Origin: an uncultured Candidatus Saccharibacteria bacterium
GTDB lineage: Bacteria; Patescibacteriota; Minisyncoccia; Phycocordibacterales; PALSA-1337
NCBI GenBank assembly: GCA_964495685.1
Contig: CAZBVQ010000002.1
Coordinates: 38,790-102,789, forward strand
DNA length: 64,000 bases
Direction: 5' to 3'
Position 1 is the first letter of the stretch. Each line of letters starts with the position of its first letter. Positions 39,333 through 48,004 of this stretch are shown here, piece after piece. Under the pieces are notes generated by a model that was given only the letters and a program-made list of their open reading frames with translations, was not told the origin of the DNA and ran no database searches. The translations under genes were made by a program, and so were the position numbers.

Positions 39333-39821
39333 TTATTTTTTCAGTAAAGCATCCCTTAGATTAGCAATTAACGTCATCTTTCCTCTGTTATCAGACAAGA
39401 GATAACCAGCATATTTCAACTCATTAAAACGACCATGCGCAACATGATTTCTAAGATCTTGGACCTGTCGCATAAGCTTAATAAATGGATCATTTTTCTC
39501 GGTATGCAATTCCTCAATAATTTTAATTTTTTCACCGAAATGAAGTTTTGAAATTATTATTTCCATAGCTTCTTTACGTGCACCCACATAAACTTCTGGT
39601 TCAATAATCAGTGATTCCGCTTCCCGCTCAACGAAATATGCAATCCAGAATACAAAATCAACCGCATCAAATTGATCATTTGATAATGAGAACCGCTCGC
39701 GCACCATTTTTTTAGCAATGTCTTTTTCGAGGCCACTAAAATCAATTCCATACTTGGCAGCGAACTTAATCAAGTCTGCAGGATTTCCATCTACAATTTT
39801 CTTTAATTCCTCTTCTGTCAT
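39333..39821 (-). CDS. hypothetical protein with a C-terminal HEPN-like R-x4-H motif (LRNHVAHGRF, HepT/DUF86-like)
   Basis: Motif read directly. The ORF start overlaps the uvrB 3' end by about 56 nt. An internal ATG at 39707 (MVRERF) would avoid the overlap. Confidence 0.35.
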   Translation of the reverse strand: MTEEELKKIVDGNPADLIKFAAKYGIDFSGLEKDIAKKMVRERFSLSNDQFDAVDFVFWIAYFVEREAESLIIEPEVYVGARKEAMEIIISKLHFGEKIKIIEELHTEKNDPFIKLMRQVQDLRNHVAHGRFNELKYAGYLLSDNRGKMTLIANLRDALLKK

Positions 39822-41913
39822 TTTTTAAGCTATTATTTCTCTTCCCCACCCCCTTCTCCTTCTTAGCCTTTTTTACTTCAGCAGCACTCCTCCTCTCCAA
39901 CTCAATCAACTCATCCCGTATAAGTGCCGCCGTCTCGAAATCCAACATCTTCACCGCCTCCTCCATAGCCTCCTGCTTCTGCTTCATCAGCAACTTGGGA
40001 TTGGTGCGCGCCAGTTCTTCATCGAGCTTCACGAGCTCATTCACGGCCTTATCATGCTCGGTGCGCAACTGATCGGTAATATCATGAATGGCCTTCTTGA
40101 TGGTCTGGGGGGTGATGCCATGCTCAGTATTGTAGGCAATTTGGAGAGCTCGTCGACGGTTGGTCTCCTTGATGGCATTGTCCATGGAGCCGGTGAGGTT
40201 GTCGGCATAAAGGATGACACGACCAGCAGCGTTACGAGCGGCACGACCGATGGTCTGGATGAGTGAAGTTTCGGAGCGCAGGAATCCTTCCTTGTCAGCA
40301 TCGAGGATACCGATGAGCGACACCTCGGGCAGGTCGAGTCCTTCACGCAGGAGATTGACGCCGACGAGGATGTCGTACTTCCCTTTGCGGAAATCGGTGA
40401 GAATAGTGATGCGCTCGATGGTCTTGACGTCACTGTGGAGATAGGCGGCCTTGATGTTTTTCTCCTTGAGAAACTCAGAAAGATCCTCGGCCATTTTCTT
40501 GGTCAAGGTCGTCGCCAAGACACGATCACCTTTGGCGATGGTCTTCTCCGCTTCATCGATGAAGTCGAAGATTTGACCTTTGTAATTGCCAGACTCCCGT
40601 ATCGGTCGTATCTCGACGATAGGATCAGTGAGCCCCGTCGGACGAATGACTTGCTCTGCCACCTGCTTACTCATTTCCTTCTCATACTTCCCTGGTGTCG
40701 CTGAGGTAAAAATCATCGGACCCACACGCTCCAAGAATTCATCGAACTTGAGTGGTCGGTTATCTTTTGCACTCGGCAGACGGAATCCATGTTCCACCAA
40801 CGTATTCTTGCGCGATGCATCACCGGCATACATACCATTGAGTTGCGGAATGGTCACATGCGATTCATCGACAATGGTGAGGAAGTCCGCCACCATCTTG
40901 CCTGTCTTGGGATCTTTCTTTTTAGGGAAATAGGACAGAAGCGTATCTGGTGGTTCGCCCGGCATCATTCCCGAGAAATGACGTGAGTAGTTCTCGATAC
41001 CGTTGGTGTAGCCAATTTCTTTGATCATCGAGAGATCGTACTTCACGCGGCGCTTGAGGCGCTCGGCTTCGAGCATCTTGCCAGCTTTCTCAAGCTCTTT
41101 GAGTCGCGCGACCAATTCTGCCTGAATAGTTTTGTACGCACGCTCACTCTGCTCATCAGTCGAGATGAAGTGCTTGGCCGGAAATATGAAAACGGTTTCG
41201 TGAGTGGCGCGTACCGATCGTGAGACTGGATCAAGTTCAGTGATAGTAGAAATGGCACTGCCTTCATATTCCAGACGATAAATAGTCTTCTCATTCACCG
41301 GCATAATCTCGATAGTATTACCGATGGCACGGAAATTGCCCGAATTGACATCGGCCGTGGTGCGCTCGAAATGAATGTCGATGAGTTTACGGATAAGTTC
41401 GGCACGCGAGAGTTCCATGCCAACTTTGAGTTTGAGATTCACTTTCTCGTATTCTTCAGGACTACCCAAACCATATATGCAAGAAACCGATGCCACGATG
41501 ATGACATCTTTCCTGGTGAGAAGTGCCTGCGTCGATGCGTGGCGCAATCGCTCGATCTCCTCGTTGATCATGGCCTCCTTTTCTATGTACGTATCGCTGG
41601 AAGGAATGTAAGCCTCAGGCTGATAGTAGTCATAGTACGAAACGAAGTAATGCACGGCATTGTTGGGGAAAAATTCGCGGTACTCCTGGGCGAGCTGAGC
41701 TGCCAGCGTCTTGTTGTGAGCAATGACGAGTGTTGGTTTGCCATACTGCGCGATGACATTGGCGGCGGTGAATGTTTTGCCGGAGCCGGTCACGCCGAGG
41801 AGGGTCTGCGGATCAAGACCCTTTTTGAGCCCCTCCACCAACGCAGAAATAGCCCGAGGCTGATCGCCGGCGGGTGTGAGGGTGGTTGCGAGTTTGAAGG
41901 GTGAAGAGCTCAT
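39766..41913 (-). CDS. uvrB: excinuclease ABC subunit B
   Basis: TPAGDQPRAI, GVTGSGKTFT Walker A, helicase motifs, and a C-terminal UVR motif (FETAALIRDELIELE) followed by a basic tail of about 45 aa. Start set at MSSSPFKL. Confidence 0.95.
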   Translation of the reverse strand: MSSSPFKLATTLTPAGDQPRAISALVEGLKKGLDPQTLLGVTGSGKTFTAANVIAQYGKPTLVIAHNKTLAAQLAQEYREFFPNNAVHYFVSYYDYYQPEAYIPSSDTYIEKEAMINEEIERLRHASTQALLTRKDVIIVASVSCIYGLGSPEEYEKVNLKLKVGMELSRAELIRKLIDIHFERTTADVNSGNFRAIGNTIEIMPVNEKTIYRLEYEGSAISTITELDPVSRSVRATHETVFIFPAKHFISTDEQSERAYKTIQAELVARLKELEKAGKMLEAERLKRRVKYDLSMIKEIGYTNGIENYSRHFSGMMPGEPPDTLLSYFPKKKDPKTGKMVADFLTIVDESHVTIPQLNGMYAGDASRKNTLVEHGFRLPSAKDNRPLKFDEFLERVGPMIFTSATPGKYEKEMSKQVAEQVIRPTGLTDPIVEIRPIRESGNYKGQIFDFIDEAEKTIAKGDRVLATTLTKKMAEDLSEFLKEKNIKAAYLHSDVKTIERITILTDFRKGKYDILVGVNLLREGLDLPEVSLIGILDADKEGFLRSETSLIQTIGRAARNAAGRVILYADNLTGSMDNAIKETNRRRALQIAYNTEHGITPQTIKKAIHDITDQLRTEHDKAVNELVKLDEELARTNPKLLMKQKQEAMEEAVKMLDFETAALIRDELIELERRSAAEVKKAKKEKGVGKRNNSLKNDRRGIKENCRWKSCRLD

Positions 41914-42085
41914 GAACATCAATAAGAATGTCACATTTTGGGAAGTAAGAATACTTGACTTATAACTATATAATATGTTATAATCGTGAAGTAAGCTCAT
42001 TGAGATCACCGAGTCAAGTTCACTTCAGGAATTGGTCCCTCCATGGTGAAGGGGTCAAAACTGTAGTGAACAAGTTGAAAACAAT

Positions 42086-42484
42086 ATGAACACGATAAAA
42101 AGTTCCTTCGTATGGATAGCTGGGCTGATCCTCGTCAGCATCACACTCGTCGGTTTTATCAAATTGGTCAACTGGTCCGGTAAAGAGAGCCGGAGACACT
42201 TCGATGAAACCCACCTGACCATTAATGATGGTATCGGGTACCACGTTGAACGCAAGGACGGAGGTATCGCCGATCTGAAAGGTTGGCGCGTACATAGTAA
42301 TTGCCCGAGCGTCCTGGGCGATCTGAATCTGCTCGTGATCACGAACAGTGGTCGAGTAGCTCAGGTATTCACAGGAAAACCTATCGAACCCGGGACGAAA
42401 GTGTTAATTAAGGGCATCACGCACAAGGTCGTCTCGACGGCGGTAGGTGAGATCAGCTTCCTAACCGCTGAAGTGGCGAAGTAA
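42086..42484 (+). CDS. hypothetical N-terminally membrane-anchored protein
   Basis: 132 aa with a signal/TM segment. No family recognised. Confidence 0.4.
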   Translation: MNTIKSSFVWIAGLILVSITLVGFIKLVNWSGKESRRHFDETHLTINDGIGYHVERKDGGIADLKGWRVHSNCPSVLGDLNLLVITNSGRVAQVFTGKPIEPGTKVLIKGITHKVVSTAVGEISFLTAEVAK

Positions 42485-42490
42485 CCCAAT

Positions 42491-42533
42491 AGCGCATCGT
42501 CCCCTCCCGGGCGGTGCGCTGGTTTTTTATATC
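42491..42533 (+). terminator. terminator module AGCGCATCGTCCCCTCCCGGGCGGTGCGCTGGTTTTTTATATC (copy 1)
   Basis: Stem GCGCAUCG / CGGUGCGC with a T-run. An almost identical copy is at 43066-43108. Confidence 0.6.
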
Positions 42534-42625
42534 AAAGTGTTTTACCACATGTTGACAAGAAATAAACCGTATGATTATATTCAACTAAACAACAGCAACA
42601 CAAACCGAAAACCTATCTCTGCCCT

Positions 42626-43054
42626 ATGAAAAGATCACAGCTCATCCTCACTATGGGTGGCCCTATGCCAGTCGAAAGTCTCAGCAACTTGTGCAGTGCC
42701 CTGATGACCATCATGAGTGCAACTGAGGAATGGCTTGAGGGGTGCGCGTCCACCGATTCATCAATGACCATAATCTGGCAGGTGGTCGCCAAAAGACCCG
42801 GCGCCGCAAGTTGCCAAGTATTTATCACTGAGCTATCTGGCTCGTGCATCTTGGGCAATTTGAGTCAGTATGGACAACACGCGCTATCCACTTCTGAACG
42901 TGTCGTCCTGGCCACTCATGGATTCGAGATCACCAACATGAAAGCGGCACCAGGTAAAACTTCGGCAAGCACTGGAATCGGCGAAAAGCTTACCGCCCAA
43001 AAACTTGCTGATATTCTCAATGCACAAGTCCTTAAGAAAAAATATGCTTCCTAG
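42626..43054 (+). CDS. hypothetical protein
   Basis: 142 aa ORF followed by the duplicated terminator module. No SD and no family. Weak. Confidence 0.3.
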   Translation: MKRSQLILTMGGPMPVESLSNLCSALMTIMSATEEWLEGCASTDSSMTIIWQVVAKRPGAASCQVFITELSGSCILGNLSQYGQHALSTSERVVLATHGFEITNMKAAPGKTSASTGIGEKLTAQKLADILNAQVLKKKYAS

Positions 43055-43065
43055 ACGCGTCCATC

Positions 43066-43108
43066 AAGCGCATCGTTCCCTCCCGGGCGGTGCGCTGGTT
43101 TTTTATAT
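43066..43108 (+). terminator. terminator module (copy 2, one mismatch relative to copy 1)
   Basis: AGCGCATCGTTCCCTCCCGGGCGGTGCGCTGGTTTTTTATATC. Confidence 0.6.
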
Positions 43109-43263
43109 CCCGCTTCGCTTCCTCCTCCGCTAAAGCTACAGAGGACAAGCAAGTTTCGCAGGACAAACAAAAAACCGCGCGCCATTCCAGAAATTCTGGA
43201 GTTGCGGCGCGCGGAATCAAGTCGCCATCGGCGGATCACGGTCCGCCATTAATAGCGACAAAA

Positions 43264-43860
43264 CTACAACCCAGGGTCACCATCAGTGAAGACCTCGACC
43301 CATTCCGAACCATTGAATCGGCATTGGAACCGTCCAGTGGCATGAGCGCATGGGCGCCAGCCACTAGAGCCGACGACTCGCTCTGCCAATTCGAAGCCAT
43401 GTTCGCTCGAATAGGCCTCACCCGGCGGCAATGTTTGGAGTTGGAGTGGTAGCGGCAATTCTTGTGCCGCACGCAATGAGTGTAATGCGTTGACTGCTTG
43501 TAATCCTTGAATACGTGATGCCATATATTTTCTTTCAACTTTTGGTTTGACCGGAATATCGTAGACGGGAAGACGCCGATGTACCGTAGGGATCAAGTTG
43601 AGGTTCCCTGACACGTACACACGACGCCTCCCGCCAAAAGTGTTATTGAGTGCCACGACCAACAAGGTGTTGGTCTTCCTGCTGAGCGCCGACTGTCGTA
43701 GGCGAGATTTCTCCAGGAGATAAAGGATGGAGTTCCCACTGACCGCGCCGACGAATAAATCGACGGCCGTCCAGCGTCCACCCGTGCCTGCCTCGGTTTG
43801 AGTTCCTGAGTAGCAGATAGCCACCTTCAGTTGGTTTTTTGGTGGCATACAACTGCGCAC
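43264..43860 (-). CDS. hypothetical ORF in a GC-richer, poorly coding region
   Basis: 198 codons with a GTG start. No recognisable family. Overlapping ORFs on both strands. Low confidence that it is a real gene. Confidence 0.2.
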   Translation of the reverse strand: MRSCMPPKNQLKVAICYSGTQTEAGTGGRWTAVDLFVGAVSGNSILYLLEKSRLRQSALSRKTNTLLVVALNNTFGGRRRVYVSGNLNLIPTVHRRLPVYDIPVKPKVERKYMASRIQGLQAVNALHSLRAAQELPLPLQLQTLPPGEAYSSEHGFELAERVVGSSGWRPCAHATGRFQCRFNGSEWVEVFTDGDPGL

Positions 43861-44161
43861 CGTCAGGAGTCATCGTACGATGATTGATCATGATGATAGG
43901 AGGGGGTTGTAGTTGTGGAAGAACTGTATTTCATCTTCATTCCTCGAGCACACGCTCGAGGATAGACGAAACCGGGCTCCTTTCGTTTGGAGCCCGTCGC
44001 TGTAACTAATTGAGAGAATTCGTTACAAAGACTGACTCCAAACACGTGCCCAGGTAATAAGCACGCGTGAAGTTGATGTCATCTTTGTAAAGTGGCAATT
44101 CATATGTTGTATACAAAATGGTAGCACTGCCACCAAAAAATGCAAGGAGTTATACACAGTA

Positions 44162-44192
44162 TAAAAAGGGGGGATCTGCTGCCAGACCCCCC
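44162..44192 (-). terminator. minus-strand terminator GGGGGGTCTG-GCAG-CAGATCCCCCC followed by a U-run
   Basis: Read on the minus strand, about 270 nt downstream of the tktC stop. Confidence 0.5.
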
Positions 44193-44455
44193 GTGTTCGC
44201 ACCTGACCGATCAATGATGTAGATGGTGCCGATCTTCAACTATCGCATCCCCAACACGTTCTGTAGTACGACGGAAAGGGTGTACCACGGATTGTCGTAA
44301 CTCCAGTTCGAGTTGTTCCTGACCAGTAACGTTCCCAAAGAAACTCAGGAATGATCCTCTTTGGCCGTAGAACTGACCGTCCATACACTCGCGATTGCGA
44401 GGTCTGACTTCATCAATCGTACAGAAGCTATTATATGACTCTTATTATTGATTGT

Positions 44456-45523
44456 CTACTTCCTCAACATCACCCTCTGAGCCGCCGCATATATATCCTT
44501 TTCGCCCATACCATAGTGTTCGATAAGCTCATCCGGCTTCCCTGTCTGACCAAACTGATTTTTAACACCAACAAATTCTATCGGCACAGGAAAATGTGCA
44601 GCCAAACATTCTGCTACCGCTGATCCCAGCCCTCCAGCAATCTGATGCTCTTCAACGGTAACAATTCCGCGAGTCTCATGAGCGAGTTTGATAACCGCAT
44701 GTTCGTCGAGCGGTTTGATCGTATGCACATTGAGCACTATTACTTCCTTCCCTTCTTCTTCCAGCTTCTGTGCGACCTTGAGTGCCTTGAACAAGAGTGC
44801 GCCTGTAGCGATGATGCCGACAGATTGTTTACTATTTTGTATGTTGAATTTGGAATTTGTTTCGGATTTTCCTCCGTCGGTACGCCCCGCTGGGCGCGTA
44901 CTTCGAATTTCGGATTTAAATACTATCTGCACCTTCCCTATCTCAAATGGCGTATCTTCGGTGGTAATTATCGGTGTCTTCTCGCGAGCTAGACGAATAT
45001 AGGTCGGGTCTGGAGTTTTCGCAGCAGCCAGAGTCGCCTTCTTGGCTTGAATGGCATCACAGGGTGAAATGACTACCATGCGCGGCAAGACACGGGTGAT
45101 GGCGATATCTTCGAGTGCTTGGTGACTTCCCCCATCGGGACCCACGGAAACACCTGCGTGTGAACCAGCAATCTTGACCGGCTGATTGTTGTAACAAATA
45201 GTCGTGCGAATCTGTTCCCAATTCCTGCCTGGACTGAAAACGGCGTATGAACTGACGAATGGGATTTTACCCATAGCGGCCATTCCAGATGCGACACTGA
45301 CCAGATTTTGTTCAGCCACACCGATCTCCACGAATCGTTCTGGGAATTTCTCTTTGAACTTCAACATCTGCGTCGACTCTGTAAGGTCTGCGCATAGACC
45401 GACAATATTCTTGTCCATTTCAGCCGCCTTCAAAAGCCCTTCACCAAATCCTTTACGAATAGGAACTTGCTCGACTGCTGGGTCGAAGAGTTTTTGATTG
45501 AGTTTGAGGGAGGGGTTGAGCAT
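44456..45523 (-). CDS. transketolase, C-terminal (pyrimidine-binding) subunit, with an in-frame insertion
   Basis: Transketolase C-terminal half (VAEQNLVSVASGMA...HTIKPLD). It carries a roughly 27-aa insertion (RSTRPAGRTDGGKSETNSKFNIQNSKQ) encoded by repeat DNA at 44846-44920. Confidence 0.85.
   Translation of the reverse strand: MLNPSLKLNQKLFDPAVEQVPIRKGFGEGLLKAAEMDKNIVGLCADLTESTQMLKFKEKFPERFVEIGVAEQNLVSVASGMAAMGKIPFVSSYAVFSPGRNWEQIRTTICYNNQPVKIAGSHAGVSVGPDGGSHQALEDIAITRVLPRMVVISPCDAIQAKKATLAAAKTPDPTYIRLAREKTPIITTEDTPFEIGKVQIVFKSEIRSTRPAGRTDGGKSETNSKFNIQNSKQSVGIIATGALLFKALKVAQKLEEEGKEVIVLNVHTIKPLDEHAVIKLAHETRGIVTVEEHQIAGGLGSAVAECLAAHFPVPIEFVGVKNQFGQTGKPDELIEHYGMGEKDIYAAAQRVMLRK
44846..44920. 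repeat. repeat element inside tktC: GAATTTG/CGGATTT heptamers flanking a GC hairpin (GTACGCC...GGCGCGTAC); shares TTCGAATTTCGGATTT with the uvrC array
   Basis: Read directly. Confidence 0.8.
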
Positions 45524-45918
45524 TAATTTTTCAAATCAATATTCATAGGAGTTACCTGGTAGGAAGGATTCTGTGGATACTGATATGGTGGCGGAGCACA
45601 ACAAGTTTGGAACGTTCTGGTCATTTGATACACAAAAAATCCTCCATAGATAATCATAAGCACGAGTATGAACCAGAATAATCCACTTTTATGTTCTGGT
45701 TTAAATTGATAACGCCTCTTCAAGATCATATACACAACAAGCAAAATGATATCTACACAAACAACAATCCAGAATAGCCAGAGGAAGCCATCAGGATAGA
45801 ACGAACTATACGTTATAAGTTTTTCAAGCGAATTGTTTTGTATTATGAGAATGATTATCCATGGCAAAATTACTAGAACAGTATTTATTGTTAAAAGGGT
45901 TTTGCGTAATTTATTCAT
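45523..45918 (-). CDS. hypothetical multi-TM membrane protein encoded between the two transketolase halves
   Basis: 131 aa, very hydrophobic, with a Pro/Tyr/Gln-rich C-terminus. Confidence 0.45.
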   Translation of the reverse strand: MNKLRKTLLTINTVLVILPWIIILIIQNNSLEKLITYSSFYPDGFLWLFWIVVCVDIILLVVYMILKRRYQFKPEHKSGLFWFILVLMIIYGGFFVYQMTRTFQTCCAPPPYQYPQNPSYQVTPMNIDLKN

Positions 45919-45924
45919 AGTAAT

Positions 45925-46806
45925 TTAATTATGATGTGGGCTCTTAATCCTACCCCCAAGCGTCCTCACACCCTCGAGCGCCTTCCTCGCCGTCTCTATC
46001 TCCTCCGGAGTCGTCGGTGGCTTACCATGCCATTCGAACTTACGTTCAAATGCTGGCACACCCTTCGAGGCAATGGTATTGGCAATAATAACTGACGGCT
46101 TATCAAACACCGCCTGCGCCTGACCTATAGCCGCATCTATAGCGCGGAAATTGTGACCATCAATCTCCTGCACATGCCAATTCCAGGCACGCCATTTGTC
46201 GGCCAATGGATTGAGCGGCATGATATCTTCGGTGAATCCATCTATCTGAATATTGTTGCGATCGATGATAGCAGTGAGATTTTGTAGTTTCTCTTTGCCC
46301 GCAAGCATGGCACCTTCCCAGCTGTTGCCTGCATTGAGTTCCCCGTCACTCATCAGACAGTAGAATTGTTTGCCTGAGGTCTTGCCATTGTCGATCCTAT
46401 CCGCCAGTGCCATACCAACTGTTTGTGACAAACCTGAACCGAGCGGACCCGATGATGTCTCTAGTCCCGGCAACCATTCACGATGAGGGTGTCCCTGTAA
46501 TTTTGAACCGAACTTCCTTAGTGTCTTCAATTCTGATACAGGAAAATAGCCGGCGTGCGCCATAGTGGCATACAAGACGGGTGCGATGTGGCCATTGGAA
46601 AGCACGACACGATCGCGATACGACCAGTCAGGCTTCTTGGGATCATGCTTGAGCGCATGGAAATAGAGATAGGTGAAAATATCAGCCATGTCGAGCGGAC
46701 CGGCGGTGTGGCCAGAACCAGCTTCGATGAGTGACTCGAGAATAGAGCGACGGATGTCCAGCGCCTTCTTTTCGAGGAGTTTTACCTTGTCATCGGTGAG
46801 GGACAT
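45925..46806 (-). CDS. transketolase, N-terminal (TPP-binding) subunit
   Basis: GSGHTAGPLDMADI...GHPH...GPLGSGLSQTVGMA motifs of the transketolase N-terminal half. Start set at MSLTDDK. Confidence 0.85.
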   Translation of the reverse strand: MSLTDDKVKLLEKKALDIRRSILESLIEAGSGHTAGPLDMADIFTYLYFHALKHDPKKPDWSYRDRVVLSNGHIAPVLYATMAHAGYFPVSELKTLRKFGSKLQGHPHREWLPGLETSSGPLGSGLSQTVGMALADRIDNGKTSGKQFYCLMSDGELNAGNSWEGAMLAGKEKLQNLTAIIDRNNIQIDGFTEDIMPLNPLADKWRAWNWHVQEIDGHNFRAIDAAIGQAQAVFDKPSVIIANTIASKGVPAFERKFEWHGKPPTTPEEIETARKALEGVRTLGGRIKSPHHN

Positions 46807-46851
46807 TACTACATAAGTATACCACAAGCAGCATCACCACTATCTCGATTT

Positions 46852-47536: not shown

Positions 47537-48004
47537 TTATTCAATCGCATCTATCTGTTCAATCCGTCTCTGGTGTCTCTCATCTCCACTGAAAGGTGTA
47601 CTCAACCAAACTCCCACAGCATCACATGCTCCATCTGCATCGACATATCGCGCACCTATGGAAAGTACATTGGCATCATTGTGCTCGCGTGACTTCTTCA
47701 GGATATCCTGATCCCCACCATACCAGACCGCAGCACGGACTCCGGGGAAGCGATTGGCGACCATGGCTTCACCCTGCCCTGATGCACCGAAAATGATGGC
47801 TTTGGTATTCCCGGTAATATCTTCGGCGACTTTGAGCGCAGCGGCCGACATGAAAACGGGATAATCATCGCCGTCTACCAGCTCATGCGCCCCCACGTCG
47901 AGAACGGTGTACATATCTGCATGTTCACGTGCCAGAAATGCTTTGACGGCTTCTTTGGCGGCGAAACCAGCGTGATCGGAGGCGAGGATGATAGTGGTGT
48001 TCAT
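47537..48004 (-). CDS. rpiB: ribose-5-phosphate isomerase B
   Basis: MNTTIILASDHAGF and an RpiB/LacAB fold of 155 aa. Confidence 0.88.
   Translation of the reverse strand: MNTTIILASDHAGFAAKEAVKAFLAREHADMYTVLDVGAHELVDGDDYPVFMSAAALKVAEDITGNTKAIIFGASGQGEAMVANRFPGVRAAVWYGGDQDILKKSREHNDANVLSIGARYVDADGACDAVGVWLSTPFSGDERHQRRIEQIDAIE

What the first reader, a model, noticed from the sequence alone, without database searches (positions are those of the whole stretch)
43100..44455. About 1.3 kb GC-richer region without credible genes between a duplicated terminator and the tkt operon
Only overlapping, family-less ORFs on both strands lie in this region (the best is 43264-43860, which has a GTG start). 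Base composition is visibly more GC-rich than the flanks. There are several strong hairpins (CTCGAGC-ACAC-GCTCGAG at about 43951-43968, GGGCTCC-TTTCGTTTG-GAGCCC at about 43976-43998, the G6/C6 stem at about 44168-44192). The region could be a decayed foreign gene, a structured non-coding RNA locus, or the long 3' UTR of the tkt operon.
Basis: seen in the sequence. Interest (0 to 1): 0.5.

Follow-up and report, generated by a model that had tools for sequence, protein, structure and literature searches.

The report
Leader-peptide attenuator plus orphan small genes
The "gene-less" 1.3 kb stretch after the transketolase genes of this Parcubacteria genome holds several small lineage-specific genes on the minus strand, preceded by a previously undescribed RNA switch that looks like a classic leader-peptide transcription attenuator; this is a new example of a known kind of regulation.

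Summary
The ORFs and the three hairpins are real, with coordinates off by up to 8 nt. The GC excess is not significant: 0.501 against 0.466 +/- 0.045, and 21% of equal-sized windows are as GC-rich.

The region is neither empty nor a tkt 3' UTR. Everything runs on the minus strand:
- A hypervariable 57-aa ORF (44384-44211) precedes the G6/C6 terminator (44192-44161), which ends the tkt transcript.
- A promoter conserved in relatives follows (extended -10 TGCTACCAT, 44126-44118).
- Next is a conserved 26-codon ORF (44103-44023) embedded in three mutually exclusive helices. These are an anti-antiterminator (-30.2 kcal/mol), a 27-nt antiterminator (44043-43985, -26.4) and a terminator (43996-43964, -17.5).
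- Then come an 82-aa ORF (43891-43643), an 82-nt hairpin, an 86-aa ORF (43524-43264) that is a diverged member of a tiny 135-aa family, and a strong terminator (43214-43168).

Nine sequences from about six lineages keep both alternative helices (94% and 92% of cells paired, against 29-49% when slid) and keep the short ORF in frame. Rfam, Pfam, NCBIfam, PHROGs, PADLOC and fold searches found nothing.

Best reading: a ribosome-mediated attenuator that controls orphan genes. The signal it senses is unknown.

The parts
44430..44458 (-). Promoter-like site TAGACA-17-TATAAT overlapping the tktC stop codon, upstream of the 57-aa ORF
   Evidence: Consensus scan, 11 of 12 matches. Relatives have TGnTAnnnT-type boxes at the same place. 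Function is inferred only.
44211..44384 (-). Small ORF 'geneX' (57 aa), hypervariable
   Evidence: In relatives L091/L092, whose flanks are about 99% identical, this roughly 300-nt stretch cannot be aligned. An ORF with the same C-terminal motif is nevertheless present there: window HPFRRTTERVGDAIV, L091 DPFARSVDDRVGDAFI. Codon-usage score is ambiguous.
44161..44192 (-). Intrinsic terminator (GGGGGG...CCCCCC followed by TTTTTAT on the minus strand) that ends the tkt/geneX transcript
   Evidence: Terminator scan: 10 pairs followed by a T-run, on the minus strand. On the plus strand no T-run follows.
44118..44145 (-). Promoter of the leader: -35 TTGCAT (44145-44140), 13-nt gap to the TG, extended -10 TGCTACCAT (44126-44118)
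   Evidence: TTGCAT/TTGACA/TTGCTT plus TGnTAnnnT sit at the same spacing in eight of the nine leader copies; L011 has TG directly abutting TATACT. The window copy is too weak to pass the consensus scan. The same TGn-TAnnAT architecture 6-14 nt before ATG is seen at several of the genes inspected in this genome.
44023..44103 (-). Leader ORF, 26 codons plus TAA: MNCHFTKMTSTSRVLITWARVWSQSL
   Evidence: It is the only frame open in all 9 sequences. L011 differs by exactly one 3-nt indel. Closely related pairs differ by 6 synonymous changes and 1 non-synonymous change, and only in this frame. None of the peptides is in a collection of 15 billion predicted proteins.
44023..44091 (-). Helix H1 (anti-antiterminator). 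UUUACAAAGA (codons 5-8) pairs with UCUUUGUAA (codons 25 to stop), with inner stems
   Evidence: Folding energy -30.2 kcal/mol, z -5.1. 92.3% of cells are paired across 9 sequences, against 35-45% when the partner is slid. One compensatory pair and many G-U wobble changes, which fit only the minus strand.
43985..44043 (-). Helix AT (antiterminator). GUUUGGAGUCAGUCUUUGUAACGAAUU pairs at 24 of 27 positions with AAUUAGUUACAGCGACGGGCUCCAAAC
   Evidence: Folding energy -26.4 kcal/mol, z -6.8, no shuffle of 200 as good. 93.8% of cells paired against 29-49% when slid; 3 pairs show changes on both sides. It becomes the minimum-free-energy fold when the first 33-45 nt are masked.
43964..43996 (-). Attenuator terminator T: CGGGCUCC-AAACGAAA-GGAGCCCG followed by GUUUCGUCU
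   Evidence: Terminator scan. Folding energy -17.5 kcal/mol, z -4.2. G-C to A-U and U-A to C-G compensatory changes occur in relatives. Its left arm plus loop, GGCUCCAAAC, is unchanged in eight of the nine sequences (L011 has one compensated change), as expected if it also pairs in AT.
43929..43961 (-). Hairpin CCUCGAGC-GUGU-GCUCGAGG followed by the purine-rich motif GGAAUGAAGAUGAAA
   Evidence: A hairpin with a different sequence is followed by GAAUGARGA at the same place in relatives. Role unknown.
43643..43891 (-). ORF 'geneA' (82 aa)
   Evidence: Called as an 82-aa gene in relatives L092/L093, 248 of 249 nt identical. In 1.8 billion representatives it finds only itself, plus weak matches of residues 6-34 to blades of lactonase-type beta-propellers. 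It is not homologous to the ORF at this position in L004/L009/L089. Coding status is not settled.
43558..43639 (-). 82-nt hairpin between geneA and geneB; base GGCGGGAGG pairs with CUUCCCGUC, then UACGAU
   Evidence: Folding energy -39.5 kcal/mol, z -4.5. The base pairing is kept with different sequences in L006, L087, L086 and L009. Role unknown.
43264..43524 (-). ORF 'geneB' (86 aa, ATG start), the credible part of the 198-aa ORF
   Evidence: Called as an 86-aa gene in relatives. An HMM built only from relatives' 128-136-aa proteins hits this frame best among 1177 six-frame fragments of the window, E 2.3e-4, over the C-terminal 53 aa. The relatives' genes show a third-codon-position excess of changes, 43/39/87. 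Window against L091: 11 synonymous and 12 non-synonymous codon changes.
43168..43214 (-). Strong intrinsic terminator CCGCGCGCC...GGCGCGCGG followed by UUUUUUG, ending the unit
   Evidence: Folding energy -27.2 kcal/mol, z -5.5. The sequence is followed directly by a T6 run.
43067..43109 (+). Second copy of the plus-strand terminator, which belongs to the convergent 142-aa ORFan (42626-43054)

Best explanation
The region is a compact minus-strand set of small genes specific to one narrow Parcubacteria (Paceibacteria) clade.

The tkt operon, together with a hypervariable 57-aa ORF, ends at the G6/C6 terminator. A separate transcription unit follows. It has an extended -10 promoter, a leader of about 150 nt, an 82-aa ORF, a long hairpin, an 86-aa ORF and a strong terminator.

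The leader works as a ribosome-mediated transcription attenuator:
- A 26-codon ORF starts 5-7 nt (inferred) after the transcription start. It runs through region 1 (codons 5-8) and region 2 (codons 21 to stop, plus 6 nt).
- With no ribosome, regions 1 and 2 pair (H1). Regions 3 and 4 then form the terminator, and transcription stops.
- A ribosome that runs to the stop codon covers region 2, with the same outcome.
- A ribosome held within roughly the first 12 codons masks region 1 and leaves region 2 free. Region 2 then forms the 27-nt antiterminator with region 3, which takes away the terminator's left arm. RNA polymerase reads on into the two ORFs.

Shown here: the three mutually exclusive helices, their conservation, the conserved ORF, and the promoter and terminator motifs.
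Inferred: that the ORF is translated, that stalling selects the fold, and the on/off logic.
Unknown: what causes stalling, and what the downstream proteins do.
For: 1. A block of about 190 nt (43966-44159) is the only part of 42000-44460 that is conserved at DNA level in relatives whose TktC is 77-80% identical. A 20-mer from it finds 6 more metagenome loci. A covariance model finds a diverged copy in L011 (49 bits, E 9e-8).
2. Strand: the consensus fold is -35.0 kcal/mol on the minus strand against -26.7 on the plus strand. Many G-U pairs exist only on the minus strand.
3. H1, AT and T all fold far better than shuffles (z -5.1, -6.8, -4.2) and share nucleotides, so they exclude one another.
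4. Across 9 sequences AT is 93.8% paired (29-49% when slid) with 3 compensatory pairs. H1 is 92.3% paired (35-45% when slid).
5. Masking the first 33-45 nt flips the minimum-free-energy fold from H1+T to AT in 5 of 9 sequences.
6. The terminator's loop bases AAAC never vary and its left arm GGCUCC changes only in L011, where the change is compensated. This is unusual for a loop and expected if it pairs with GUUU of region 2.
7. The short ORF has its ATG, frame and stop kept in all 9 sequences. The other two frames carry stops. There is one indel, of exactly 3 nt. Close pairs give 6 synonymous to 1 non-synonymous change.
8. Every invariant nucleotide is accounted for by one of the pairings, and the apical part of H1 varies freely. 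No conserved unpaired core of the riboswitch type is left over.
9. The scan finds no promoter between T and the 82-aa ORF.
10. This genome generally lacks Shine-Dalgarno sequences and places TGnTAnnAT boxes 6-14 nt before ATG, so the leader ORF's start context is normal here.
11. The published bmrB leader of B. subtilis has the same layout: a small ORF that harbours three alternative stem-loops (PMC4191407).
Against: - There are only about six independent lineages, all from one narrow clade, so covariation is thin: 3 pairs in AT, 1 in H1, 2 in T. Most support is plain conservation.
- The peptide's conserved ends (HFTK, VWSQSL) are encoded by nucleotides that pair. Ser12's two fixed bases are paired and its free third base is not. 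Peptide-level conservation can therefore be a by-product of RNA structure.
- Over all sequences, second codon positions vary as much as third positions (10/16/18).
- There is no run of codons for one amino acid and no cluster of rare codons, so no sensed signal can be named.
- The U-tract after T is interrupted (GUUUCGUCU).
- The window's promoter hexamers are weak (3/6 and 4/6) and fail the consensus scan.
- In 3 of the 9 sequences (L004, L006, L011) the terminator stays the minimum-free-energy fold even when region 1 is masked, and in L091 the switch is only partial.
- Coding status of the 82-aa ORF is unproven, and all codon-usage scores are intermediate.
- No expression data are available.
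Confidence: 0.6

Rival explanations
1. The switch is a real terminator/antiterminator attenuator, but it is set by something other than a translating ribosome: a protein (perhaps a product of the downstream ORFs), a small molecule or temperature. The open reading frame would be a by-product of the structure.
For: The three alternative helices are well supported. Much of the peptide conservation can be explained by base pairing. Substitutions are not concentrated at third positions overall (10/16/18). No regulatory codons are present.
Against: No conserved unpaired nucleotides are left to form a binding pocket, and the apical part of H1 is the most variable part. Rfam finds no riboswitch or protein-binding leader. 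ATG, frame and stop are kept in all 9 sequences, the single indel is 3 nt, and close pairs give 6 synonymous to 1 non-synonymous change in this frame only.
Confidence: 0.15
2. The conserved element is a stand-alone small gene: a 26-aa micropeptide mRNA, or a dual-function small RNA, with its own promoter and terminator. The downstream ORFs would be transcribed separately.
For: The element has its own conserved promoter and a terminator right after the ORF. The promoter and short ORF are a divergence island of about 30% between strains that are otherwise about 99% identical, and L091 carries the L009-type allele. This suggests selection on the product itself.
Against: A plain small gene does not need a conserved 27-nt helix that sequesters the left arm of its own terminator. 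The scan finds no promoter between T and the next ORF. In every locus one or more ORFs follow in the same orientation.
Confidence: 0.15
3. The region is decaying foreign or junk DNA. The ORFs are remnants and the hairpins are incidental.
For: There are no family matches for any ORF. Codon-usage scores lie between coding and non-coding. The 82-aa ORF resembles a lone beta-propeller blade. The 86-aa ORF lacks the N-terminal half of its family.
Against: The order of parts is kept across lineages whose TktC is only 73-80% identical. The geneB family shows a third-position excess of changes. The ORFs are intact in several assemblies. Structures are conserved with compensatory changes. Composition is not foreign-looking.
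Confidence: 0.05
4. The region is a long structured 3' UTR of the tkt operon.
For: It lies directly downstream of tktC on the same strand. In L006 no terminator separates tkt from the element.
Against: In the window a strong terminator (44192-44161) precedes the element. The element has a conserved promoter. In L089 it follows infB, which is on the opposite strand, not tkt.
Confidence: 0.03

Closest known systems
bmrB leader of the Bacillus subtilis bmrBCD operon (ribosome-mediated transcription attenuation; PMC4191407)
   Same: A small ORF upstream of the regulated genes harbours three alternative stem-loops, including an intrinsic terminator. Read-through requires translation of the small ORF and is thought to follow ribosome stalling. 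There is no run of codons for one amino acid.
   Different: bmrB is 54 codons long and controls a multidrug ABC transporter, induced by antibiotics that target the ribosome. Here the ORF is 26-27 codons and nearly leaderless. The regulated genes are orphans of unknown function, and the inducing signal is unknown. No sequence similarity was noted; this was not formally tested.
Amino-acid operon attenuators of the trpL/hisL/thrL/pheL type (established knowledge; PMC3082878 for pheL)
   Same: Four-region logic: 1:2 anti-antiterminator, 2:3 antiterminator, 3:4 terminator, with a leader peptide ORF running over region 1.
   Different: Those leaders carry runs of codons for the cognate amino acid and precede biosynthetic genes, and the stop codon lies between regions 1 and 2. 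Here there is no codon run, the stop codon lies inside region 2, and the downstream genes are not biosynthetic.
Leader peptides that also act in trans (peTrpL of Sinorhizobium meliloti; PMC7298713)
   Same: A leader peptide encoded in an attenuator could have a function of its own. The allele replacement of the short ORF between near-identical strains hints at selection on the product.
   Different: There is no evidence here for any trans activity, and the sequences are unrelated.
Arrest-peptide leaders (tnaC, ermCL, ermBL; ermBL in PMC8274638)
   Same: A short conserved leader peptide, with two conserved Trp residues near the C-terminus, whose stalling could set an RNA switch.
   Different: Those systems use Rho-dependent termination (tnaC) or translational attenuation (erm). 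Stalling at the stop codon in this leader would favour the terminator, not relieve it. No arrest motif was recognised.

Membership tests
Ribosome-mediated (leader-peptide) transcription attenuator | Short ORF with a usable start, located upstream of the regulated genes on the same transcript | tested here: met
   A 26-27-codon ORF is conserved in all 9 sequences. Its ATG lies 6-14 nt after a conserved extended -10 box, a start context seen at several of the genes inspected in this genome.
Ribosome-mediated (leader-peptide) transcription attenuator | Intrinsic terminator between the leader ORF and the structural genes | tested here: met
   43996-43964: 8-bp G+C-rich stem followed by a U-rich tail. 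Flagged by the scan; -17.5 kcal/mol, z -4.2. The U-tract is interrupted.
Ribosome-mediated (leader-peptide) transcription attenuator | Antiterminator helix that uses the terminator's 5' arm and excludes the terminator | tested here: met
   44043-43985: 24 of 27 positions paired, -26.4 kcal/mol, z -6.8. 93.8% paired across 9 sequences, with 3 compensatory pairs.
Ribosome-mediated (leader-peptide) transcription attenuator | Anti-antiterminator helix that overlaps the leader ORF, so that a ribosome can melt it | tested here: met
   H1 pairs codons 5-8 with codons 25 to stop. -30.2 kcal/mol; 92.3% paired across 9 sequences.
Ribosome-mediated (leader-peptide) transcription attenuator | The leader ORF is translated, and ribosome position changes read-through | not testable with these tools
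   Only indirect support: frame-specific synonymous bias (6 to 1) and a 3-nt indel. Needs toeprinting, reporters or Term-seq.
Amino-acid-sensing attenuators (trpL/hisL/thrL type) | Run of codons for the sensed amino acid in the leader, with biosynthetic genes downstream | tested here: not met
   No repeated codon run and no rare-codon cluster. The downstream ORFs match no enzyme family.
Riboswitch or other known cis-regulatory RNA family | Match to a curated covariance model, or a conserved unpaired ligand-binding core | tested here: not met
   No Rfam match reaches its family's gathering score in the window (E up to 10 listed) or in two relatives (E up to 1 listed); the few weak listings look like chance. 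The invariant bases are all explained by the H1, AT and T pairings.
Stand-alone structured ncRNA (tmRNA, 6S, SRP RNA, RNase P RNA) | Match to a family model | tested here: not met
   No Rfam or ARAGORN match lies in 42300-44700.
Lactonase-type 7-bladed beta-propeller (PF10282), considered for the 82-aa ORF | Pfam gathering-score match and several blades | tested here: not met
   No Pfam match at E up to 1. Only residues 6-34 resemble one blade (38% identity over 29 aa), and the E-value is inflated by the repeats in the targets.
Orphan 128-136-aa family of relatives (P0002-P0007), considered for the 86-aa ORF | Significant profile match at the syntenic position | tested here: met
   An HMM built without the window sequence gives E 2.3e-4, the best of 1177 fragments. 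Only the C-terminal 53 aa match, and the N-terminal half is absent.

The most novel reading that the evidence does not exclude
The leader peptide is more than a sensor. The 26-aa peptide and the small proteins around it (57-aa and 86-aa ORFs) could form a fast-diversifying partner set, for example peptide and binding protein, or toxin and immunity or signalling, in an episymbiotic ultrasmall bacterium.

The basis is the pattern between strains that are about 99% identical elsewhere. Exactly these three pieces are replaced by old, divergent alleles: about 30% divergence, 12% divergence, and unalignable. The 82-aa ORF lying between them is unchanged. The peptide would then act in trans, as peTrpL does, while its mRNA doubles as an attenuator.
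Probability: 0.1. Interest if true: 0.7.

Novelty: new member of a known kind. Interest (0 to 1): 0.4.

Why it matters
Very little is known about gene regulation in Patescibacteria (the Candidate Phyla Radiation). A 2024 perspective mentions riboswitches only as a prospective engineering tool (PMC11665869).

A natural, compact transcription switch of about 150 nt, with its own promoter and working on nearly leaderless mRNA, would be a concrete regulatory element for this group. It could also serve as a starting point for inducible expression tools.

The case also shows that stretches which look gene-less in these reduced genomes can hold unannotated micro-ORFs and orphan genes. None of the seven leader peptides is in a collection of 15 billion predicted proteins. 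The signal and the function of the regulated genes remain unknown, which limits what can be claimed today.

Tried and rejected
- Rfam, at gathering thresholds and at E up to 10, on the window, and at E up to 1 on two relatives: nothing. ARAGORN: no tRNA or tmRNA in the region.
- Pfam, PHROGs, NCBIfam and PADLOC on all ORFs of the window and of relatives: nothing above noise.
- Word-indexed search of 5.8 billion proteins. The 198-aa ORF finds one hit, from the same organism. A profile of the geneB family finds only 8 proteins. The 142-aa ORF finds only itself.
- Full HMMER search of 1.8 billion representatives with the 82-aa ORF: itself, plus weak matches to repeat proteins.
- The 198-aa ORF as one gene: rejected. 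Relatives-aa and 86-aa genes there. Its N-terminal part overlaps the 82-aa ORF in another frame, and its middle is the conserved 82-nt hairpin.
- Homology between the window's 82-aa ORF and the roughly 67-aa ORF at the same position in L004/L009/L089: none.
- Paralogy of the two plus-strand ORFs that carry the duplicated terminator: none.
- Codon-usage log-odds: uninformative, with all small ORFs scoring between coding and non-coding.
- Phage origin: matches of a degenerate pattern in viral contigs are chance and score nothing with the covariance model.
- Small ORFs downstream of the terminator hairpin and in other frames: not conserved.
- LexA-box reading of the CTGTGnATAAC motif upstream of the -35: no palindrome, and the motif is absent in L089 and L011. 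Not pursued.
- Regulatory or rare codons in the leader: none.
Full report
**Source and setting.** The window comes from an uncultured Parcubacteria/Paceibacteria genome. The same sequence is on public contig WANG18-1_SAMN08389277 scaffold_40. The closest TktC in 185,579 species genomes is 80% identical and belongs to a Candidatus Parcubacteria MAG. On the minus strand the gene order is rpiB, rpe, tktN, a 131-aa ORF, tktC (44456-45523), the region in question, two plus-strand ORFs, then uvrB (39766-42009).

**Checking the observation.**
- The ORFs are as described. None matches Pfam or PHROGs. The 198-aa ORF finds only a 99%-identical fragment of itself among 5.8 billion proteins.
- The three hairpins exist, at 43943-43960, 43974-43995 and 44168-44192. 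The first two are 2-8 nt away from the stated coordinates.
- The GC claim fails. The region has GC 0.501 against a mean of 0.466 (sd 0.045) for windows of the same length, and 20.6% of those are as high or higher. The flanks are 0.491 and 0.461.
- Rfam and ARAGORN find nothing here.

**What comparison with relatives shows.** BLASTN of 42000-44460 against 80 tkt loci of related genomes finds one conserved block, 43966-44159. It is 72-81% identical in the three closest relatives, with indels that are not multiples of three outside a central 81 nt.
- A 20-mer from this block finds six more metagenome loci.
- A covariance model finds a diverged copy in L011 (49 bits, E 9e-8).
- Assemblies that are about 99% identical to the window add one more allele, in L091/L092.
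- In total there are nine distinct sequences from about six lineages.
- In L089 the element follows infB rather than tkt. In L089 and L011 it is followed by one small ORF and then uvrB, which has its own promoter. The element therefore belongs with the ORFs downstream of it, not with tkt.

**Anatomy on the minus strand** (coordinates).
1. A promoter-like site, TAGACA-17-TATAAT (44458-44430), and a 57-aa ORF (44384-44211).
2. The G6/C6 hairpin followed by TTTTTAT (44192-44161). On the minus strand this is an intrinsic terminator, and it ends the tkt transcript.
3. A conserved promoter: TTGCAT (44145-44140) and the extended -10 TGCTACCAT (44126-44118). The TGnTAnnnT box and its spacing are kept in eight of the nine sequences, L011 has TG directly abutting TATACT, and L009 has a perfect TTGACA. 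The window copy is too weak to pass the consensus scan.
4. A 26-codon ORF (44103-44023).
5. Three helices that share nucleotides:
   - H1 (44091-44023) pairs codons 5-8 with codons 25 to stop, with inner stems (-30.2 kcal/mol, z -5.1).
   - AT (44043-43985) pairs 24 of 27 positions between the 3' end of the ORF and the stretch that ends in the terminator's left arm and loop (-26.4, z -6.8).
   - T (43996-43964) is the GGGCUCC/GGAGCCC hairpin with a U-rich tail (-17.5, z -4.2).
6. The CTCGAG hairpin and a purine-rich motif (43961-43929).
7. An 82-aa ORF (43891-43643).
8. An 82-nt hairpin (43639-43558; -39.5 kcal/mol).
9. An 86-aa ORF (43524-43264).
10. A strong terminator (43214-43168; -27.2 kcal/mol).

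**Support for the RNA switch.**
- The consensus fold is better on the minus strand (-35.0 against -26.7 kcal/mol). G-U pairs fit only that strand.
- On a nine-sequence alignment AT is 93.8% paired, against 29-49% when the partner is slid by 1-3 columns. Three pairs change on both sides: A-U to G-C in L011, U-A to C-G in the window and L091, and U-A to A-U.
- H1 is 92.3% paired against 35-45% when slid, with one compensatory pair and many wobble changes.
- T shows G-C to A-U and U-A to C-G changes.
- The terminator's left arm and loop, GGCUCCAAAC, is unchanged in eight of the nine sequences; the loop bases AAAC never vary, and the single arm change in L011 is compensated. This is expected only if the stretch also pairs with GUUUGGAGUC in AT.
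- Without masking, the minimum-free-energy fold is H1 plus T in 8 of the 9 sequences (L091 keeps T but not the basal H1 stem). With the first 33 or 45 nt masked, AT replaces T in five of nine sequences.

**Is the short ORF translated?**
- It is the only frame open in all nine sequences. ATG and TAA are invariant. L011 differs by exactly one 3-nt indel.
- Closely related pairs (L006/L087/L086 and L009/L091) differ by six synonymous changes and one non-synonymous change in this frame. In the other two frames the same changes are mostly non-synonymous. Six of seven changes at third positions has a probability of about 0.007 if positions were hit at random (my calculation).
- This genome mostly lacks Shine-Dalgarno sequences and places TGnTAnnAT boxes 6-14 nt before ATG, so the start context is ordinary here. 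In L011 the ATG lies 6 nt after the -10 box, which would make the mRNA leaderless.
- Against: over all sequences, second codon positions vary as much as third positions (10/16/18). The conserved peptide ends are encoded by paired nucleotides.

**Mechanism proposed.** This is a four-region attenuator.
- With no ribosome, or with a ribosome that runs to the stop codon inside region 2, the terminator forms.
- With a ribosome held in roughly the first 12 codons, region 1 is masked, AT forms, and transcription continues into the 82-aa and 86-aa ORFs.
- No codon run or rare-codon cluster points to a signal.
- All invariant bases are explained by pairing, and the apex of H1 is variable. A ligand-binding riboswitch core is therefore unlikely.
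- The nearest published parallel is bmrB of B. subtilis, a small ORF with three alternative stem-loops whose translation is needed for read-through (PMC4191407).

**The ORFs.**
- Relatives carry a 128-136-aa gene after the leader. Its substitutions concentrate at third positions (43/39/87 for L004 against L009). A profile search finds only eight family members.
- An HMM built without the window sequence hits the window's frame 43267-43869 as the best of 1177 six-frame fragments, with E 2.3e-4. Only the C-terminal 53 aa match.
- The 99%-identical relatives have gene calls of 82 aa and 86 aa, not 198 aa. The 198-aa ORF is therefore probably a fusion artefact: its N-terminus overlaps the 82-aa ORF in another frame, and its middle is the conserved hairpin.
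- The 82-aa ORF finds only itself, plus weak matches of residues 6-34 to blades of lactonase-type beta-propellers. Pfam does not support this.
- Codon-usage scores are intermediate for all the small ORFs.

**Mosaic divergence.** Against L091 the baseline divergence is about 1%. Three islands stand out:
- the 57-aa ORF region (44160-44456), which cannot be aligned;
- the promoter plus short ORF (44165-44021), about 30% divergent;
- the 86-aa ORF (43565-43264), about 12% divergent, with 11 synonymous and 12 non-synonymous codon changes.

Meanwhile 44020-43566 has 3 differences in 455 nt. L091's short ORF encodes almost the same peptide as distant L009. This points to old alleles exchanged by recombination, and it is the basis of the speculative 'partner set' reading.

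**Verdict.** The region is not gene-less, not GC-distinct, and not a tkt 3' UTR. It holds orphan small genes behind a well-supported, previously undescribed terminator/antiterminator switch, which is most likely ribosome-mediated. The kind is known and the family is new. The evidence is computational and rests on few lineages.

Noticed in passing
window 42491-42533 and 43067-43109 (+), bracketing 42534-43066: The duplicated 43-nt terminator (42/43 identical, only two copies in the window) brackets a 576-bp cassette. The cassette has its own promoter-like site, TTGACA-18-TATATT (42552-42581), and a 142-aa ORF that finds only itself among 5.8 billion proteins. The ORF before the first copy (132 aa, 42086-42484) is unrelated to it. 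Two independent assemblies (L002, L003) break exactly inside this repeat.
   Followed up: partly
window 44160-44456 (-), against L091 660-958: The stretch between the tktC stop and the leader promoter cannot be aligned between strains whose flanks are about 99% identical. Both versions nevertheless encode a small ORF ending in a similar motif (RVGDA) followed by a terminator. L009 and L087 have further versions, and L006 has none.
   Followed up: partly
window 43558-43639 (-): An 82-nt hairpin (-39.5 kcal/mol, z -4.5) lies between the 82-aa and 86-aa ORFs. Its base, GRCGGGAGG pairing with CCUCCCGUC and followed by UACGAU, is kept with different sequences in L006, L087, L086 and L009. In those relatives it encloses from 17 to more than 100 nt. 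Its role is unknown; it could be a processing site or a translational control element.
   Followed up: partly
window-wide, e.g. starts at 48004, 46806 and 44103 (-): Most gene starts inspected have no Shine-Dalgarno sequence, and several have a TGnTAnnAT box only 6-14 nt upstream of the ATG. This suggests that leaderless or very short-leader mRNAs are common in this organism.
   Followed up: no
L089 4117-7959: The uvrB gene of this relative is a 1280-aa ORF with a large insertion that looks like an intein with a homing-endonuclease-like middle part. It was not analysed.
   Followed up: no
window 45523-45918 (-): A 131-aa hydrophobic ORF sits between the two halves of the split transketolase (tktN 45925-46827, tktC 44456-45523), and its stop overlaps the tktC start. 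A 44%-identical ORF is at the same place in L008.
   Followed up: no
window 43788-43876 (-), residues 6-34 of the 82-aa ORF: TMTPDGAQLYATKKPTEGGYLLLRNSNRG resembles the repeated blade motif TVSPDGSHLYA...VFSRN..G of lactonase-type 7-bladed beta-propellers (38% identity over 29 aa). A second, fainter copy may lie at residues 56-82. This could be a remnant of a larger gene or a chance match.
   Followed up: partly
window 44151-44161 (-), and the same place in L004, L006, L009, L087: The motif CTGTGnATAAC lies just upstream of the -35 box of the leader promoter in most copies. It is absent in L089 and L011. It could be a regulator site or an UP-like element.
   Followed up: no
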